From: Mobula hypostoma
Taxonomy: Eukaryota
Assembly: GCF_963921235.1 (NCBI RefSeq)
Contig: NC_086108.1
Location: 90,026,001-90,090,000 of the forward strand
Length of the DNA stretch: 64,000 nucleotides
Reading direction: 5' to 3'
A program made the translations under genes and the position numbers. Under the pieces are notes generated by a model, which was given only the letters and a program-made list of their open reading frames with translations, was not told the DNA's origin and ran no database searches. The first letter of the stretch is position 1, and the number at the start of each line of letters is the position of its first letter. Positions 4,624 through 60,535 of the stretch are shown in pieces.

Positions 4624-6525
4624 TGGGTAAATCTTGCTCTTTACTGTGAGAGCCCTGTAATCATCCATAGACAATAGATTCACCTGGGCTCCTGTGTCAA
4701 CCTTGAATGGAATTACTGTCTTATTCATGTTACTGCAATGACCCATTCTGTTTTACCGACACCAGCAGTCTGTTGAGAACCCACAAAAGTTCCTCCATTT
4801 TCTCCTCAACGATGTGCATCTTCCACTTCATGGCCCCAGCTTTGCAGTACTTTGCAAAATGATTCTTCTTCCCACAACTATTGTGGACTTTCTGTAAGTA
4901 GGACACATCTTTGGAATGTTATTACCTCTACATCTGTTTTTTTTTGCTCCTTAAGTCTTCCTCTTTGCTGTTGCTTTGGGAACTGCTTTGTGCACTGCTT
5001 CTCTTTTTTCACGCATGCAATGTTGTGTTTGCTCTGTGCAGCTCCTCAGCTTGTGATCATGTGGTCACTGCTGCCCTACACGTTCACAGCCTTCTCCAGT
5101 GTCAAATCTTTTTCACACAGCAGTCTTTCTCTGAGTATATTATCTGGAATTCCACAAATTTATGCTGTCTCTAACTAGTGAGTTTCTCAAATCTCCAAAT
5201 TCACAGGACTTAGTGTGTGAGGCTCAGCTAAGTATTGGTCGAAGCTAACACCATATTTCTAATCACAAGAAAAGAACTTGTATCTCTCAAGAGTGATATT
5301 TTTGCTTGGGACAAAATGCTCCACAAATTTTGACATCAGCGCGTCCAACATAAAAGCTGTCTCATGAATTGGAAACCTATTATAGATGTCCAAAGCATCT
5401 TTGCCAATTACATGCAGAAAAATACAAGCTTTAAAATTTTCATTGGCCCCTCGTGCTCTGATAGCAGATAAGTATATATTGGATCGATGTTTGAAGCTGC
5501 ATAGATGCGGGAGAACTTAGCTTGTTCATGACGGAAACTCTCGGCCTCTCACCTAGATCTCTTTTGGTGAATCTGCTGACTGTTGAACTTTGGGAACAAT
5601 GTGGACTCTCACCTTGCTGGCAGCTTCTCTCTGTCTGAGCTCACCTGATGCTAGCACCTTTCATACTCATGCAGTCTCTTTCTCTGTCATGCACAGTATC
5701 CATTTACTTTCCATGCTTAGTCTCACACTACCTTCCGAAACCATGTTGTTAATAAAGACAAACCTGGCGTAGGTTTATGTTAGAACATATTATTATTGAA
5801 CTGCTGCTCTACCCAATACGCTCACAAGCAGTTCATCACCACAGCTTCCAGTTCCGGATGAAATCCTCGCATTGCCCACTGGGAACTAAATTTCTTTATT
5901 ATGTACACAAAATAACATAAACCCCTGTGTTAAAGTGTTGCAGCCTTTCTCCTCCATACACTTCGAGCAGCTTGTCTTGAATTGTGTCCTGTTGGCCATT
6001 TTTCAAGAAAACACAAAATATATATGAAAACATAGTAACAGAAGTAAATCACTTCATGCCTCAAATCAATACAACCATTCAATATAACCATGATTAATCT
6101 GCCCCAGCTCTCAGTTCCACTTTCTTGTCAGAGCCCCAAAGGCATCATTTCTCCAATCTTTCAAAAATTTACCTTGCTCTATTTTTAATGATCTATCCTT
6201 CACAATATTTGGGGGCAGCATATTCACTATCCTCTCTGAGAAGAAATTTCTGTATCCCATGGTTTTAAATAACCAGTCTCAAACTAGTGAAAACATCTCT
6301 ATCATGCTCCCTTTGGATCGTATAACAAAACTAATCCTCATTCTTCTGAACTCCAAAGAATACAGACTCAACTGTTTAGTTGCAATTGAGAGGACAGAAG
6401 AACATTAATTAATACAACTGTAACCCACTGAAATTGCTTTGTTCCACAGTTGTGAAATCAGCAAAAGGTCCTTTTCTTCCTTGCAGACTCACATAACTTG
6501 CAAGAATTAAAGAAAATGTGATATA

Positions 6526-31033: not shown

Positions 31034-31280
31034 TGTTGTGCATTTATTATTTCAGTGATATTTGAGTAATATCGTAAATATATTGTTTGCTTAAGCATTC
31101 TTTGTTCTTTACATAATTCATTATGGGTTATACATAAAAGTATGAGAAGGCATACGTCATTACATCGCCACATCCTAAGTGCACACCTCATTAAAAGTAA
31201 AAATGAAATGCACATATTTATCCGGGGCTCCATGTTTTTCTTTTGATTAGTTTTCTGTTTTGGAGTTGCAAGACATATGA
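31034..31280 (+). mobile_element. Solo LTR related to the LTRs of the 48490-51353 Gypsy element
   Basis: tgttgtgcatttattatttcagtgatatttgagtaat...ttaagcattctt is reverse-complement homologous to 48490-48746 and 51113-51353. Possible 5-bp TSD aagaa/gagaa. Confidence 0.78.
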
Positions 31281-47800: not shown

Positions 47801-48489
47801 TACTGTACGAAGTTAAAAGTTCTAGGACTTTTTCTAATATTTTCCATCAGTTCATTTTTATTTATTGTATACTTGTGATGCATACTTTTTCAACCAATCT
47901 GTCTCCTTTTATGTGTAATAGATGATACTTCCATTTATATAGCACCATAATAACCTTCTCATCTCAATTTAGAAATGTTTTCAGAATGGACGGAATATTG
48001 AATTTGCTTCATCTGCTGCAACTGTGCTGTGAATATTGAATTGAGTTCAGGGGTCTGAGAGAATAGAAATGCACCCAGCCTATTCAGTGGAACCTCAATT
48101 TGTCTGCACTTATGATTATCCACAAAACTACTTTTTTTAAATAGAAACCATCCTTTTTGCATAAACCAACCGAAGTGCTATGAAGCATTTAAAATTGATT
48201 TCCAGACCCTTAGTTATTGAAGAGAAGAGTTCAGCTGCCACTAGAATGTATATATATCATGGAAATCACTTGCCACGGAGTCTTTAAATTGTGGTCTGAT
48301 TCTCTTTTTCCTGGAGAGTTTGGTGTACATGCAAATCTGAAACAGATGACTTGCAGGAGAAAGCTCTTCTTCTTGCCTCACACAAGGAAATACCAAGAAA
48401 CACTTGGGCAGTCACATAGCACCTAGTGTGGAGCTAAAGCATTTGAGCCTGACAAAATTCAACATTACATCTAAAAACTGGAAAGACAC

Positions 48490-51353
48490 AGTTATGTTTC
48501 ATAACTTCAAAACATTAAACTAATTCAAAGAAGTAATAGGAGTCTGAAATGTGGGTCTAACTCTGAGATTACTTTAAGGTAGGCACTCACCTATCACATG
48601 GTAGCGTGATGCCATCTGTAATTCAAGTATTTATAAATACAGCATAACCCCTAATGCATTATTAAAAAAACAAGAATGCTTAATCAAACAATATACATAT
48701 ATGCACAAGATTACTCAAATATTACTGAAATATCAAATGCACAACACTCCTTCCTGCTTAGCTATAAACTCCAACTCAACACAGAATTCATCTCAGCTAT
48801 ACACACAGTATATTATATCATACATCTACTATATACTGACATCTACAGCATAACAAATTTTCAATGGTCCCATTCATGCCTAAAGATTTAATCGCTGTGG
48901 AGTATTTCTTATTCTTGTGGGATGACTAGGGAAGTCATTCCACTTGGCAGGTGAGACTTGTGGCTGTAAAAACAATTGTAGGCTCTGGGGCCTCCTCCGT
49001 GATGGTTGAGGAGATCATTCTGAGACTGCAGAATGTGGTTCTAATGCAGGTAGTCACCTTTCTTCTTCTTCACTTCTCTGTTTCTGGTTTGTGCATCTTG
49101 ATCTTGGGAAGCTGTATTTAATTCACTGACGTATTCTCTTATTAATCGTTCTATTGCCTCCTTTGCGATCTGATCTCTCCTCTTAGTTTCTGCATCCACA
49201 ACATCAACTGACGAATCCTCTATTTTTGTATCTCCATTGACTCCAGTCTTTTTCACCTTCCATTCACCCAACCGGGCTTTGGTCTTTCCATCTACTTTTA
49301 CAAGCAGCTTTTTGTCTCCCACTTGAAGTTCGTGTAATAAATTTAATGCATGCAGATTAGATTCTTGTTCTTTATATTCACAAAAGCCAAATGTTTACAA
49401 CTTTCCTGAAGCTCCTTGATCTCCCTTTGAGCTTAAAACCACACCACATTTCACAAGTAACTGCCTGATTAACATATTAGAAGCTTTCTCAGATATGTTG
49501 CCTACAAAAACTGGTGTGGTCGAACCCCCAATTTCATCACTTTCATAATTCTTCTTAGTAGTGTTCTTCTTCCTTGATTCAATATGCTTTCCAACCAGAG
49601 GAAAACCTGTTTGTCCTCTGTTGGGCAACTGTTCATGGTGTACAGCATTGAGACAGTTTTGGGATCATCCAATACCTTTCTTAATTCACTTTCAATTGGC
49701 TGTAGTACAGAGGATGAGGCATGTAAATGGTGAATGGATCTCAAATCAAGTTATAGTTGTTTCAGCCAATCATGGCCTCAGAATGCTAGTCCTTCTGCTT
49801 TAACCACATACAAGCTCAATGTGGTTTGCTGGTTGTTGTATTTCACAGTACGAATGTCATTCCCACAGGAGTAACCTTTTCTCCAGTATAAATTCTGAGT
49901 TGGATATCTTCAGTTTGGTACCTTTGATATGCCATTCATGCCAATTTTATGGAATGACTAACAGCTGAACCATGTCCAAAGCCATTTTAATTAATTTGCC
50001 ATTCACTTTTGGCAAGAGTCATACTGCTTGTCTATTGCTGATTTTCACACTGTAAATCATAAGGCTACACAGTCCTGTGTCTCTCACCATTATCAGATTT
50101 TTCATCAACAGCATGCAGCTTAGTGTTATTTTTGAAACTGCAACTTGACTTTTTAGCATTTACTCTTTTCTGTGCTGTCCATTTATTTTTGTCTGCCCGA
50201 GATGTTCTTTGTAAGTGTCATATTTAGTTACATTTTCTGAAAGTTTTGTCTTTAAATGTACATTTGTTTAGTGAACGTGAGTGCTTGCCACAATGGTAAC
50301 ACAATTTTTTCAGCCAGGATGGTTTCTGTTTTATATGTTGCAATTTTGTCATGATCTCTTTCATTGCTGACTGAAACAGCAATTTCAACTGCTCTTTTAA
50401 ATGTAAGTTGTACTTCAGTTTGCAGCCATTTCTGAATGCTTTCTTTAAAGATTCCACAAATTAAATAATCGCTTAGTGCATCATTAAGCCTATTACCAAA
50501 CTAGCAATGCTCAGATAATCTCTTCAATTTAGTCACACATATTGAAATAGACTCCTCTTCTTTTTGATTCCACCTCTGAAACCGAAAGTGTTCTGCAATC
50601 AAATTGCCGTTGGTTCTAAGCGTTTCTGCATCACATTTCTGCTGGTTTAGTTGAAGCAATTAAACTACAAAGCAAACAGTACACCTTTAAACTCAATGCA
50701 CTCAGAAAAATTTGGTACTTATTTCTCATTGGCTATTGTATTTGCTACAAAATATTGCTGAATTAGCTCAGTATACATATTCCAGTTATCTTCTGTGTGA
50801 TCAAATGTTTTAATTTTCCTGACCAGCCAGCTATTTCTGCTTTGTTTTTTAAAATCATTATTATCAACCGGTACTCAGTCTCTATGAATGCATGAATTCT
50901 TCTGTATTCTGACTTATTTTAAAAACTCAGTTGTGTCTTCCCTTCCAAAGAACATGCGTGGTGCTGCATTTCTTTAAACTCGACTGTCTCTGCACGTGCT
51001 AGGCTGTGTCTTCTTTCTCGCCGTGTTTTTTTTTTAAAGTTTGAAATGTCTTGCTGCGTTTCAACAGGTCGACAGCCATCTCAGGTCTGGTTTAAAAACA
51101 CACCGTGGCCAATGTTATGTTTTGTCACTTCAAAACATTAACCTAATTCAAAGGAATACATAAGAGTCCAAAATGCGGATCTAACTTTGAGTTTACTTTA
51201 AGCCAGGTGTGAACATATCAGGTGGTAACGTAATGTCCTGTGCAATTCAGGTATTTATACATGATGCATTCCTTAAGTGAACAAAAATGCTTAATCATAC
51301 AATATATATAAACAAGATTACTCAAATATGACTGAAATCTTAAATACACAGCA
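48490..51353 (-). mobile_element. Two-LTR Gypsy element: gag and protease retained, RT/RNaseH/integrase core replaced by an RBM25 fragment
   Basis: Direct-repeat LTRs 48490-48746 and 51113-51353. PBS-like TTGGCCACGG next to the 5' LTR and PPT AAGCAGGAAGGAG next to the 3' LTR. 5-bp TSD gacac/gacat. Gag knuckle CYHCGKH..NKC (ORF 50224-50457). Frameshifted protease (VNGKLIKMALD..GSAV) at about 49960-50010. Integrase-type tail (HPTRIRNTPQRLNL*) at about 48880-48925. Confidence 0.9.
49053..49660 (-). pseudogene. RBM25: Intronless fragment of RNA-binding motif protein 25 (RRM and following helix) inside the Gypsy element
   Basis: One continuous frame: LVGKH...GGSTTPVFVGNISEKASNMLIRQLLVKCGVVLSSKGDQGASGKL*TFGFCEYKEQESNLHALNLLHELQVGDKKLLVKVDGKTKARLGEWK...ETKRRDQIAKEAIERLIREYVSELN. 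This matches vertebrate RBM25 as I recall it (VFVGNISEKASDMLIRQLLAKCG...GASGKLQAFGFCEYKEPESTLRALRLLHDLQIGEKKLLVKVD). One CAA>TAA stop at 49395-49397. Confidence 0.93.
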
Positions 51354-51379
51354 GACATTGCACAAAATAGATACACCTG

Positions 51380-51650: not shown

Positions 51651-51902
51651 TCAACAACATCTTACTGAGACTAAAACTGGAAGCACTCAGGGAGAAGAGG
51701 AAGAGGATCAACATTTTGGGTCGAGGACCTTTTATTAGAACTGGAGTAAATGAGTGTGTAAATTGTGGGGGGCGGGAGTGGATCAGGAGGAAGAAATATC
51801 AGCGTTCGGGTGTAGTTTAAAGTTCTGAAGGGAACAATGAGTTTAAAAACCAGCAGTTGGAGGAGATGGAAGGAAAAGGCATGCGGGGTGTGAGAAAGAG
51901 AA

Positions 51903-53413
51903 ATGAAAATTGCTGAGCCTCTGGCTAGGATCTTCATGTCCTTGTTGTCTACGGGAATGGTACCGGAGGATTGGAGGGAGGCGAATGTTGTCGCCTTGTT
52001 CAAAAAAGGTAGTAGGGATAGTCCGGGTAATTATAGACCAGTGAGCCTTACACCTGTGGTGGGAAAGCTCTTGGAAAAGATTGTTAGAGATAAGATCTCT
52101 GGGCATTTAGAGAATCATGGTCTGATCGGGGACAGTCAGCATGGCTTTTTGAAGGGCAGATCGTGTCTAACAAGCCTGATAGAGTTCTTTGAGGAGGTGA
52201 CCAGGCATATAGATGAAGGTAGTGCAGTGGATGTGATCTATACGGATTTTAGTAAGGCATTTGACAAGGTTCCACACGGTAGGCTTATTATTCAGAAAGT
52301 CAGAAGGCATGGGATCCAGGGAAGTTTGGCCAGGTGGATTCAGAATTGGCTTGCCTGCAGAAGGCAAAGGGTCGTGGTGGAGGGAGTATGTTCAGATTGG
52401 AGGATTGTGACTAGTCGTGTCCCACAAGGATCTGTTCTGGGACCTCTACTTTTTGTGATTTTTATTAACGACCTGGATGTGGGGGTAGAAGGGTGGGTTG
52501 GCAAGTTTGCAGATGACACAAAGGTTGGTGGTGTTGTACATAGTGTAGAGGATTGTCCAAAGATTGCAGAGAGACATTGATAGGATGCTGAAGTGGGCTG
52601 AGAAGTGGCAGATGGAGTTCAACCCGGAGAAGTGTGAGGTGGTACACTTTGGAAGGACTAACTCCAAGGCAGAGTACAAAGTAAATGGCAGGATACTTGG
52701 TAGTGTGGAGGAGCAGAGGGATCTGGGGGTACATGTCCACAGATCCCTGAAAGTTGCCTCCCAGGTGGATAGGGTTGTTAAGAAAGCTTATGGGGTGTTA
52801 GCCTTCACAAGTCGAGGGATAGAGTTTAAGAGTCGCGATGTAATGATGCAGCTCTATAAAACTCTGGTTAGGCCACACTTGGAATACTGTGTCCAGTTCT
52901 GGTCGGCTCACTATAGGAAGGATGTGGAAGGATGTGGAAGCATTAGAAAGGGTACAGAGGAGATTTACCAGGATGCTGCCTGATTTAGAGAGTATGCATT
53001 ATGATCAGAGATTAAGGGAGCTAGGGCTTTACTCTTTGGAGAGAAGGAGGATGAGGGGAGACATGATAGAGGTGTACAAGATAATAAGAGGAATAGATAG
53101 AGTGGATAGCCAGAGCCTCTTCCCCAGGGTACCACTGCTCAATACAAGGAATGGCTTTAAGGTAAGGGGTGGGAAGTTCAAGGGGGATATTAGAGGAAGG
53201 TTTTTTACTCAGAGAGTGGTTGGTGTGTGGAATGCACTGCCTGAGTCAATGGTGGAGGCAGATACACTAGTGAAGTTTAAGAGACTACTAGACAGGTATA
53301 TGGAGGAATTTAAGATGGGGTCTTATATGGGAGGCAGGGTTTGAGAGTCGGCACAACATTGTGGGCCGAAGGGCCTGTACTGTGCTGTACTATTCTATGT
53401 TCTATGTTCTATG
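51903..53413 (+). mobile_element. CR1 LINE, 5'-truncated, relatively well preserved RT
   Basis: ORFs 51903-52580 ([14 protein letters not shown]...[11 protein letters not shown]...[12 protein letters not shown]...KFADDTK), 52564-52983 and 52889-53344. Tail (ttctatg)n. Confidence 0.95.
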
Positions 53414-58696: not shown

Positions 58697-60535
58697 ATAG
58701 AACATAGAATAGTACAGCACAGTACAGGCCCTTCAACCCACAATATTGTGCCGACCCTTAAACCCTGCCTCCCATATAACCACCCCCCACCTTAAATTAC
58801 TTCATATACCTGTCTAACAGTCTCTTAAATTTCACTAGTGTTAACTGCCTCCACCACTGACTCAGGCAGAGCATTCCACACATCAACCACTCTCTGAGTA
58901 AAAAAACCTTCCTCTAATATCCCCCTTGAACTTCCCACCCTTTACCTTAAAGCCATTCCTTGTATTGAGCAGTGGTACCCTGGGGAAGAGGCACTGGCTG
59001 TCCACTCTATCTATTCCTCTTAATATCTTGTATACCTCTATCATGTCTCCTCTTATCCTCCTTCTCACCAAAGAGTAAAGCCCTAGCCCCCTTTATCTCT
59101 GATCATAATGCATACTCTCTAAACCAGGCAGCATCCTGGTAAATCTCCTCTGTACCCTTTCCAATGCTTCCACATCCTTCCTATAGTGAGGCGACCAGAA
59201 CTGAACACAGTACTCCAAGTGTGGCCTAACCAGAATTTTATAGAGCTGCACCATTATCTCGCAACTCTTAAACTCTATCCCTCGACTTATGAAAGCTAAC
59301 ACCCCATAAGCTTTCTTAACTACCCTATCTACCTGTGAGGCAACTTTCATGTACCCCAGATCCCTCTGCTCCTCCACACTACCAAGTATCCTGCTATTTA
59401 CTTTATACTCTGCCTTGGAGTTTGTCCTTCCAAAGTGTACCACCTCACAGTTCTCTGGGTTGAACTCCATCTGCCACTTCTCAGCCCACTTCTGCATCCT
59501 ATCAATGTCTCTTTGCAATCTTTGACAATCCTCTACACTATCCACAACACCACCAACCTTTGTGTCGTCTGCAAACTTGCCAACCCACCTTTCTACCCCC
59601 ACATCCAGGTCGTTAACAAAAATCACAAAAAGTAGAGGTCCCAGAACCAATCCTTGTGGGACACCACTAATTACAACCATCCAATCCGAATGTACTGCCT
59701 CCACCACGACCCGCTACTTCCTGCAGGCAAGCCAATTCTGAGTCCACCTGGCCAAACTTGCCTGGATCCCATGCCTTCTGACTTTCTGAATAAGTCTACC
59801 ATGTGGAACCTTGTCAAATGCCTTACTAAAATCTATGTAGATCACATCCACTGCACTACCCTCACCTATATGCCTGGTCACCTCCTCAAAGAACTCTATC
59901 AGGCTTGTTAGACATGATCTGCCCTTCATAAAGCCATGCTGACTGTCCTTGATTAGACCATGATTCTCTAAATGCCCATAGATCCTATCTCTAAGAATCT
60001 TTTCCAAGAGCTTTCCCACCACAGACAGACATAAGGCTCACTGGTCTATAATTACCCGGACTATCCCTACTACCTTTTTTGAACAAGGCAACAACATTTG
60101 CCTCCCTCCAATCCTCCAGTACCATTCCCATGGACAACGAGGACATAAAGATCCTAGCCAGAGGCTCAGCAATCTCTTCCCTCGCCTCATGGAGCAGCCT
60201 GGGGAATATTCCGTCAGGCCCTGGAGACATATCCATCCTAATGTATTTTAACAACTCCAACACCTCCTCTCCCTTAACATCAACATGCTCCAGAACATCA
60301 ACCTCACTCATATTGTCCTCACTGTCATCAAGTTCCCTCTCATTGGTCAATACTGAAGAGAAGTATTCATTGAGGACCTCGCTCACTTCCACAGCCTCCA
60401 GTCATATCTTCCCATCTTTATCTCTTCACTCCTGTCATCCTTTTGTTCTTCACATAATTGAAGAATGCCTTGGGGTTTTCCTTTACCCTACTCGCCAAGG
60501 CCTTCTCATGCCCCCTTCATGCTCTCCTCAGCCCC
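58697..60535 (-). mobile_element. CR1 LINE, same subfamily as 51903-53413, opposite orientation
   Basis: ORFs 59991-60392, 59714-60022, 59093-59707 (GVPQG.VLGPLLF...KFADDTK) and 58883-59071. Tail atagaacatagaatag. Confidence 0.94.

What the first reader, a model, noticed from the sequence alone, without database searches (positions are those of the whole stretch)
48490..51353. Gypsy LTR element that appears to have captured a spliced host RBM25 mRNA fragment in place of its pol core
Seen: on the minus strand the order is 5' LTR, PBS, gag, protease, about 600 nt of RBM25, integrase-type C-terminal tail, PPT, 3' LTR, with a near-perfect 5-bp TSD (gacac/gacat). RT, RNaseH and the integrase core are missing exactly where RBM25 sits. 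The RBM25 piece is in sense orientation to the element and has no intron, poly(A) tail or TSD of its own. Established: template switching onto co-packaged cellular mRNA during LTR reverse transcription produces this architecture (acutely transforming retroviruses, LTR-mediated retroposition), and vertebrate RBM25 is a multi-exon splicing factor. Inference: this is a transducing non-autonomous retroelement that kept all cis signals and may belong to an amplified family carrying an RRM domain.
Basis: partly seen in the sequence, partly recalled or inferred. Interest (0 to 1): 0.9.

Follow-up and report, generated by a model that had tools for sequence, protein, structure and literature searches.

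The report
Retrotransposon family carrying spliced RBM25 fragment
This is one decayed copy of a crippled jumping gene in a cartilaginous fish that long ago swapped its own copying enzymes for an intron-free piece of the host splicing gene RBM25 and was then copied, cargo and all, to about a thousand places in the genome.

Summary
Observation confirmed, and the family is large. Window 49059-49664 is RBM25 mRNA. It holds the last 10 nt of one host exon and five further exons, among them a 48-nt alternative exon; the four internal introns of 1.7-4.8 kb are gone. It replaces about 3 kb of pol that a cargo-free sister element keeps. The 5' junction occurs at 965 loci (reversed control 0), roughly 1,500 after allowing for decay. 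Copies have separate flanks and 5-bp TSDs. The switch points carry 7-nt and 8-9-nt microhomologies. Longer copies run four exons further, and the window is the short, internally deleted form. Copies form a star, differ privately by about 9% and decay neutrally (singleton omega 0.97). Best reading: one double template switch onto co-packaged RBM25 mRNA, then trans-mobilised amplification with passive cargo. The mechanism is known (Tan 2016); the copy number far exceeds the 1-5 cited there for Bs1. This scan noted the same family before on another piece of this genome (e1-7790852). A SUDS3-carrying family here belongs to a different Gypsy lineage, so such capture recurred.

The parts
51354..51358 (.). 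5-bp target-site duplication, upstream copy (plus strand gacat)
   Evidence: 4 of 5 letters match the downstream copy
51113..51353 (-). 5' LTR
   Evidence: direct repeat of 48490-48746
51101..51111 (-). decayed primer-binding site, tRNA-Ser(GCT) type
   Evidence: same place in other copies; matching tRNA-Ser(GCT) gene in the genome
50200..50880 (-). broken gag with a decayed CCHC knuckle near 50230-50307 (limits approximate)
   Evidence: translations; 44-50% protein identity to the matching region of another Gypsy family; no Pfam hit; label partly from recalled motifs
49665..50020 (-). broken protease and linker up to the point where RT would begin
   Evidence: 74-79% DNA identity to the stretch of sister L038 that runs on into RT, RNase H and integrase; label from position and recalled motif
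49655..49664 (-). 5' switch point: 7-nt microhomology shared by element and host exon end (two changes in this copy), then 3 nt found only in the host exon
49607..49654 (-). RBM25 48-nt alternative exon (host C1:99832633-99832586, AG/GT flanks)
   Evidence: the same peptide stands in Heptranchias perlo RBM25 isoforms and in Logan protein P0185
49452..49606 (-). RBM25 171-nt exon (start of RRM), with a 16-nt deletion in this copy
49394..49451 (-). RBM25 58-nt exon (one stop codon at its end in this copy)
49233..49393 (-). RBM25 161-nt exon (end of RRM)
49059..49232 (-). RBM25 177-nt exon, ending in the purine-rich stretch (49066-49059) shared with the element tail; short-form 3' junction
48880..49058 (-). 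end of pol (tail behind the integrase) to its stop codon
   Evidence: 71-74% DNA identity to the tails of sisters L038 and L040
48747..48759 (-). polypurine tract
   Evidence: same place in other copies
48490..48746 (-). 3' LTR
48485..48489 (.). 5-bp target-site duplication, downstream copy (plus strand gacac)

Best explanation
A Ty3/Gypsy retrotransposon packaged a spliced host RBM25 mRNA (the isoform with the 48-nt exon) in its particle. During reverse transcription RT left the element's RNA at a purine-rich match in the pol tail, copied about 1.07 kb of RBM25 mRNA across eight exon-exon junctions, and returned to the element at a 7-nt match just behind protease. The product lost RT, RNase H and the integrase core but kept LTRs, PBS, the gag region and PPT. 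Intact sister elements could therefore package, copy and integrate it in trans. It spread in one ancient burst to at least 965 and probably about 1,500 sites. On the way, deletions between purine-rich repeats in the Arg/Glu region gave middle and short forms; the window is a short form. All copies examined are now dead, and the cargo was most likely a passenger. Shown: spliced origin, replacement of pol, microhomologies, shared junction, separate integrations, neutral decay. Inferred: template switching as the act, trans-mobilisation, the order long to short, passive cargo.
For: Window cargo maps to five separate host segments at 83-94% identity. All five have AG/GT flanks, and 28-30 of 30 copies align without a gap across each of the four internal junctions. 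One host locus only: 3 matches for the C-terminus and 1 strong match for the N-terminus, all on C1. Sister L038 holds RNase H (E 9e-11) and integrase H2C2 (E 9e-7) in the roughly 3 kb between the two junction positions. 5' microhomology TGCCACA (chance about 6e-4). The 3' junction of long copies lies inside a later host exon at a GAGAAGAAA-type stretch that sister tails share over 6-8 nt. 965 loci match the 31-nt 5' junction at up to 3 mismatches, control 0; 8 of 8 exact-match loci fetched carry RBM25 exon sequence downstream. 113 loci have the long 3' junction at up to 2 mismatches and 31 have the short one exactly. TSD letters match at 30 of 45 in the 9 copies where both ends could be placed, against a shuffled mean of 14.4 (p 2e-5). 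Star-like tree, no strongly supported inner branch of 33, median tip 0.087. Singleton omega 0.97. 4 of 4 long copies but only 7 of 28 others keep the host letter at one diagnostic column (p 0.009).
Against: Sequence alone cannot tell an RT template switch from DNA repair patched with cDNA. The tree does not resolve long, middle and short forms (long needs 2 changes, no better than shuffles), so their order rests on a few columns. Two of 9 copies show no TSD (1 of 5 letters), and element ends were partly placed by eye. The sister tails fetched are decayed, so the length of the 3' microhomology is less sure than the 5' one. The 5' fusion is in frame with RBM25 (ungapped in 28 of 30 copies) and 29 of 31 short junctions keep the frame of the long form, which fits selection as well as chance. 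18-21 near-fixed synonymous differences from the host are slightly more than the 13 expected from copy decay (P 0.03-0.11).
Confidence: 0.85

Rival explanations
1. DNA-level origin: a break in an integrated Gypsy copy was repaired with RBM25 cDNA by microhomology-mediated joining, and the product then spread as a non-autonomous element.
For: It predicts the same anatomy: spliced partial cDNA, microhomologies, no poly(A).
Against: It needs a 3-kb deletion and a sense-oriented cDNA patch in one event. Sense orientation with matches at both ends is the pattern Tan et al. (PMC5131818, sections read) attribute to template switching. A second Gypsy family in this genome shows a like swap with SUDS3.
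Confidence: 0.07
2. Splice capture, as in the classic model for transducing retroviruses: a Gypsy copy in or above RBM25 was read through and spliced from a cryptic donor in pol to the acceptor of the 48-nt exon.
For: The main cargo starts exactly at an exon start, and sisters have a GT at the matching position.
Against: The three letters before the exon are those of the upstream host exon (ACT), not those of the sisters (GCA). Two of three would have had to change by chance to the host state.
Confidence: 0.03
3. A LINE-made processed pseudogene of RBM25 landed in a Gypsy element and was trimmed.
For: LINE-like RT sequence is abundant here (for example window 51894-52580), and a preprint ties retrocopy counts outside mammals to LINEs (10.64898/2026.06.26.734816, passages).
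Against: No poly(A), no cargo TSD, and the mRNA's 3' half is absent. C-terminal and N-terminal queries hit only the host locus. All 54 scored full-protein hits lie within residues 60-413 of 836 (stricter first look, so a floor).
Confidence: 0.02
4. Same 5' capture, but the different 3' ends come from repeated recombination of the long chimera with intact sisters, or from several captures, and not from nested deletions.
For: Tree unresolved. The exon end used by the short form is itself similar to the element tail.
Against: The commonest short junction keeps the GG before AGAAGAAA found in the later host exon, where sister L038 has AG. Short copies share derived letters with some long ones.
Confidence: 0.15
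5. The cargo was selected: an in-frame fusion carrying the RBM25 RRM, or the host-like spliced RNA itself, helped the element replicate.
For: In-frame 5' junction. Frame kept in 29 of 31 short junctions. All deletion forms seen spare the RRM. The non-CpG amino-acid changes that reached high frequency lie outside the RRM (codons 5, 14, 169, 193-195).
Against: An in-frame 5' junction has a 1-in-3 chance. Deletions in a purine repeat with 3-nt period tend to keep frame anyway. Few swept changes exist, so sparing a 40% stretch is not significant. 30 of 30 copies have a broken cargo frame, with singleton omega 0.97. Whether gag and protease share one frame with the cargo could not be shown.
Confidence: 0.12

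Closest known systems
LTR-mediated retrocopies of animals (Tan et al. 2016, Genome Res 26:1663, PMC5131818; abstract, section 6, Discussion and passages read)
   Same: Partial spliced mRNA inside a discontinuous LTR element, microsimilarity at both switch points, no poly(A) or cargo TSD, secondary retroposition with shared switch points.
   Different: That paper's vertebrate cases are a few loci per genome (5 in zebrafish, 4 in chicken, 3 in human, 8 in mouse); no cartilaginous fish is among the species named in the sections read. Here one chimera reached at least 965 loci and split into long, middle and short forms.
Maize Bs1 (as described in PMC5131818; primary papers not read)
   Same: LTR element whose internal region is replaced by host mRNA pieces and that was copied again with the same switch points.
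   Different: Bs1 has 1-5 copies and three donor genes, and is said to give a hybrid protein. This family has one donor, two to three orders of magnitude more copies, and no intact cargo frame in 30 copies examined.
Bat Helitrons carrying host fragments (Thomas et al. 2014, PMC4224331; abstract and section 13 read)
   Same: A vertebrate transposon amplifying captured host sequence to thousands of copies (12,382 in total over 54 genes and 16 non-genic regions).
   Different: Rolling-circle DNA transposons, mostly genomic fragments with promoters and introns. Here an LTR retroelement with a purely spliced cargo in place of pol.
Acutely transforming retroviruses (recalled, no call)
   Same: Replication genes replaced by spliced host sequence, cis signals kept, helper needed.
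   Different: No sign of env in the sister (its tail runs straight to the LTR), no intact or selected cargo shown, and spread was by germline retrotransposition.

Membership tests
LTR-mediated retrocopy (Tan 2016) | Host sequence flanked by two discontinuous parts of one LTR element | tested here: met
   Window aligns to sister L038 up to 2117 and again from about 5140-5163; the cargo sits between
LTR-mediated retrocopy (Tan 2016) | Cargo is spliced, partial mRNA | tested here: met
   Five exon-exon junctions in the window, eight in long copies; N- and C-termini absent
LTR-mediated retrocopy (Tan 2016) | Microsimilarity at both switch points | tested here: met
   7 nt exact at 5'; 8-9 nt at 3' for the long form, read from decayed sister tails
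LTR-mediated retrocopy (Tan 2016) | No poly(A) tail or TSD around the cargo | tested here: met
LTR-mediated retrocopy (Tan 2016) | Secondary retroposition with the same switch points | tested here: met
   965 loci; different flanks with TSDs
LTR-mediated retrocopy (Tan 2016) | Co-transcription from the LTR | tested here: inconclusive
   Contigs bridge the junction in X4 and X18, but these runs are only guessed to be RNA and are held as contigs
Non-autonomous Ty3/Gypsy element | LTRs, PBS, PPT and 4-6-bp TSD | tested here: met
Non-autonomous Ty3/Gypsy element | Helper family with order PR-RT-RNase H-IN | tested here: met
   In L038 a YLDD motif, RNase H hits and an integrase H2C2 hit follow in that order. 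RT itself got no Pfam hit in this broken copy; 1 of 3 sisters fetched had this much pol.
Non-autonomous Ty3/Gypsy element | Placement in a named Gypsy clade by an RT tree | not tested
   A likeness to Mag/K02A2.6-type elements is recalled, not tested
Transducing (acutely transforming) retrovirus | Intact, expressed cargo protein under selection | tested here: not met
   30 of 30 copies with a stop or frameshift; singleton omega 0.97
Transducing (acutely transforming) retrovirus | env-bearing infectious helper | tested here: inconclusive
   No room for env between the pol tail and the LTR in L038; only one near-complete sister seen
LINE-made processed pseudogene | 3' end of the mRNA, poly(A) and TSD | tested here: not met

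The most novel reading that the evidence does not exclude
In this fish lineage several Gypsy families repeatedly turned into high-copy carriers of spliced mRNAs for nuclear regulators (RBM25 here, SUDS3 in another family), and the winners were not random: the in-frame RBM25 cargo, as an RRM fused to Gag-protease or as host-like RNA that was better kept, exported or tolerated, raised the element's own copying rate. A selfish element would then have co-opted a splicing-factor domain. The top retrocopy parents listed for cartilaginous fishes would reflect Gypsy amplification, not LINE activity followed by host selection.
Probability: 0.12. Interest if true: 0.88.

Novelty: new variant of a known kind. 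Interest (0 to 1): 0.62.

Why it matters
It shows that in a vertebrate one LTR-captured mRNA can become a transposon family of its own with about a thousand copies, far beyond the 1-5 copies cited for Bs1. It gives an unusually complete fossil record: donor isoform, both switch points and a deletion series. It also bears on a current reading of vertebrate retrocopies. A 2026 preprint on 244 genomes (10.64898/2026.06.26.734816, passages read) names SUDS3 among the top retrocopy parents of cartilaginous fishes, ties retrocopy counts to non-LTR elements and explains lineage profiles by selective filtering. Here at least 119 SUDS3-like matches exist, and the 3 of 3 fetched lie behind Gypsy gag and protease. 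Counts of this kind can therefore be one capture multiplied by a transposon, which is directly testable for the other listed genes. Such copies can also inflate gene-family counts in shark and ray annotations (inference).

Tried and rejected
PDB search with the second half of the cargo gave only weak RRM hits, E 0.46 or worse. The Pfam PWI search found SRRM1-like and PRPF3-like exons (names from recalled sequences), not RBM25; the host gene was found with RBM25 pieces instead. LTR dating: 10 of 19 copies gave a usable LTR pair (K2P 0.16-0.27); 9 gave short or spurious alignments and were dropped. No substitution rate was obtained, so no age in years is given. TSDs: both ends could be placed in 9 of 18 copies. 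Codons 193-205 were left out; codons 193-196 were added and hold three high-frequency amino-acid differences, so '18 synonymous, 0 non-synonymous' holds for codons 1-192 only. The tree did not separate long, middle and short forms. The test for a single gag-protease frame failed: distances scatter with indels and two anchors were off frame. Polarising near-fixed differences with other species was mostly impossible, since only 40 of 141 rows were shown. No bridging contig was listed for run X6, but that table is cut. The idea that the SUDS3 cargo rides in the same family was rejected: no DNA match beyond one 33-nt hit, 44-48% protein identity in gag. The look-up of earlier findings by sequence returned nothing. 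Literature searches that found no report of this family; RBM25 has 0 occurrences in the main text of the preprint and of PMC10787021. The preprint's supplements were not seen and may list RBM25; the supplements of Tan et al. were not opened.
Full report
Setting. The window lies at G000:C50:90026001-90090000 in a 3.48-Gb assembly of 200 contigs. The best protein match to a well-kept copy of the cargo is RBM25 of the shark Heptranchias perlo (76%, E 2e-88), so the host is a cartilaginous fish. Earlier notes of this scan call it a ray; I did not test that.

The observation. On the minus strand the window reads: LTR (51353-51113), PBS, gag, protease, cargo, pol tail to a stop at 48880, PPT (48759-48747), LTR (48746-48490), with flanking 5-mers alike at 4 of 5 letters. 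The cargo is RBM25 (E 8e-58; RRM_1 E 1.1e-6). None of the three minus frames has an RT, RNase H or integrase hit. Gag and protease got no Pfam hit either. I name them from recalled motifs, from their position before RT in a sister element, and from 44-48% identity to another Gypsy family. In other copies the PBS fits the 3' end of a tRNA-Ser(GCT) gene present in the genome.

The donor. RBM25 pieces outside the cargo hit one locus, C1:99.79-99.84 Mb: three C-terminal exons and the first coding exon. Against 30 kb of this locus, window 49654-49058 splits into five matches of 83-94%, separated in the host by introns of 1.7-4.8 kb. The five segments are 48, 171, 58, 161 and 177 nt long, all with AG/GT flanks, and together form an open frame. 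The 48-nt segment is a real alternative exon. H. perlo isoforms XP_067833824.1 and XP_067833825.1 begin with the same peptide, and Logan protein P0185 runs from the upstream exon through it into the next. A contig of run X6 joins it to another spliced stretch of the same host intron. In front of it the element carries the last 10 nt of the upstream host exon. So the window's cargo crosses five exon-exon junctions, and 28-30 of 30 copies align without a gap across each of the four internal ones.

What was replaced. Cargo-free sisters read GATGATGCCACA-GCAG where chimeras read GATGATGCCACA-ACTG. Of three sisters fetched, L038 continues for about 3 kb through a YLDD motif, RNase H (E 9e-11) and an integrase zinc finger (E 9e-7), then rejoins the window at the tail. 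L039 is interrupted by other repeats, and L040 has its own internal deletion with no RBM25 exon match. The order PR-RT-RH-IN makes the family Ty3/Gypsy; no clade tree was built.

Switch points. At the 5' end element and host exon share TGCCACA exactly (chance about 6e-4). The next three letters are the host's, which argues against a splice from a cryptic donor in pol. At the 3' end the copies differ. Long ones (L008, L020, L026, L059) continue through the 84-nt exon and parts of the 335-nt Arg/Glu exon into the next exon, and end at a GGAGAAGAAA stretch that resembles the element tail. This junction occurs at 113 loci with up to 2 mismatches (control 0). Middle forms (L015, L027, L030) skip the 84-nt exon. 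The short form of the window goes from the 177-nt exon straight to the same purine stretch; 31 loci match it exactly. The original capture was thus about 1.07 kb over eight junctions, by summing host exon lengths. Long copies keep host letters that most others have lost (4 of 4 against 7 of 28 at one column, p 0.009; two keep the host His-Pro codons). That fits nested deletion, though the tree does not resolve it.

Amplification. The 720-nt junction-to-junction query gave 3,036 candidates; 40 were scored and all 40 matched, the 39 other than the window at 78-82%. The 29 other loci fetched show element sequence on one or both sides of the cargo. The 31-nt 5' junction matches 965 loci at up to 3 mismatches, 62 of them exactly, and the reversed control matches 0. 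The sister sequence differs from this pattern at five places, so few sisters can slip in. The ratio 62/965 fits about 10% decay and a total near 1,500 (estimate, indels ignored). Eight exact-match loci taken across contigs all carry RBM25 exon sequence downstream (8 of 8). Flanks differ. In the 9 of 18 copies where both ends could be placed, the TSD is perfect in 2, 4 of 5 in 3, 3 of 5 in 2 and absent in 2 (30 of 45 letters, shuffled mean 14.4, p 2e-5). Contigs bridging the 5' junction by more than 31 letters on each side occur in runs X4, X18 and X19, labelled organisms A, E and F. E holds only 0.34 of the words of a host exon, so the family is older than that split and is no assembly artefact. 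These runs are contigs and only guessed to be RNA, so they do not show transcription.

Age and selection. Copies differ from the host by 9.7-14.5%, privately by 8.6% on average, and from each other by 15.7% (closest pair 10.5%). The tree is a star: 0 of 33 inner branches are strongly supported, median tip 0.087, host tip 0.034. Ten usable LTR pairs give K2P 0.16-0.27. The 30 copies were the window's best matches, so this is if anything a young-biased sample. All 30 have a stop or frameshift in the cargo, and singleton changes give omega 0.97. Differences shared by at least 20 of 30 copies are 18 synonymous and 0 non-synonymous in codons 1-192 (Fisher 8e-12 against singletons). The simplest reading is purifying selection on the host gene since capture: 13 are expected from the copies' own synonymous decay (P 0.11 for 18, 0.03 for 21). 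One such site seems host-derived, as organism E keeps the copies' letter. Just beyond, codons 193-195 differ non-synonymously in 30 of 30, 25 of 29 and 27 of 30 copies. The first matches H. perlo; the other two arose within the family.

Mechanism. Shown: spliced donor, replacement of pol, microhomologies, one shared 5' junction, independent integrations, neutral decay. Inferred from the model in Tan et al. (PMC5131818): a double template switch inside the particle, then copying in trans by intact sisters because all cis signals survived. I put this at 0.85. The open question is why this chimera did so well. The 5' fusion is in frame and the short deletion keeps that frame in 29 of 31 exact matches, and every deletion form spares the RRM. 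Each of these also has a plain explanation (1-in-3 chance, a 3-nt repeat period, deletions confined to repeats), and a single gag-protease frame could not be shown. I give selected cargo 0.12.

Context and novelty. The mechanism is described. In the sections read, Tan et al. list a few loci per vertebrate genome and cite 1-5 copies for Bs1. Bat Helitrons reach thousands of copies with host fragments but are DNA transposons (PMC4224331). Eight literature searches found no report of this family; the library lacks most subscription papers, and I could not query Repbase or Dfam. The scan itself noted the family at another locus (e1-7790852) and other cargos in this genome. I checked one: Sds3 gives 119 matches among 150 scored, and 3 of 3 fetched lie behind Gypsy gag and protease of a different family. 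A 2026 preprint lists SUDS3 among the top retrocopy parents of cartilaginous fishes and explains such profiles by non-LTR elements and selection (supplements not seen). The verdict is a new variant of a known kind, notable for scale and for recurrence across Gypsy families. Interest 0.62.

Noticed in passing
G000:C1:99832633-99832586 (L034): The 48-nt in-frame alternative exon of RBM25 gives the same 14 residues in this fish and in Heptranchias perlo, and is absent from the bony-vertebrate proteins I viewed. It looks like a strongly conserved, cartilaginous-fish-specific exon.
   Followed up: partly
G000:C1, about 99837505-99837476 (L034): A contig of run X6 joins a stretch of the intron after the second coding exon, ending at a GT, to the 48-nt exon: a further cryptic exon of host RBM25.
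   Followed up: partly
L061-L063 and 116 further matches: SUDS3-like sequence sits behind gag and protease of a second, younger-looking Gypsy family (copies 82-92% alike), with no DNA match to the RBM25 family.
   Followed up: partly
L040:2262-2333: A cargo-free sister in which the start of RT is joined almost directly to the pol tail, with about 70 nt between: another internally deleted derivative of the same family.
   Followed up: no
C59:28260903-28261460, C18:168619643-168620218, C2:224750744-224751268, C91:57053834-57054361: 4 of 54 scored RBM25-like hits have no stop inside 175-195 matched codons; possible candidates for a retained frame or for mis-annotation as genes.
   Followed up: no
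window 31034-31203 (+): 76% match to the LTR of sister L038 with no internal sequence nearby in that search: probably a solo LTR of the same family.
   Followed up: no
window 51894-52580 (+): 228-codon open stretch of LINE-type (CR1-like, recalled) reverse transcriptase just upstream of the element; related repeats at about 52742-53409 and 58697-59345.
   Followed up: no
C76:4506072, 4781810, 4888350, 4998920: Four exact 5'-junction matches within 0.5 Mb on C76, possibly local segmental duplicates rather than separate insertions.
   Followed up: no
L064:1500-1583 (C1:99.65 Mb): A tRNA-Ser(GCT) gene, the likely primer type, lies about 140 kb from host RBM25; it is 1 of 16 pattern matches, so probably chance.
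   Followed up: no
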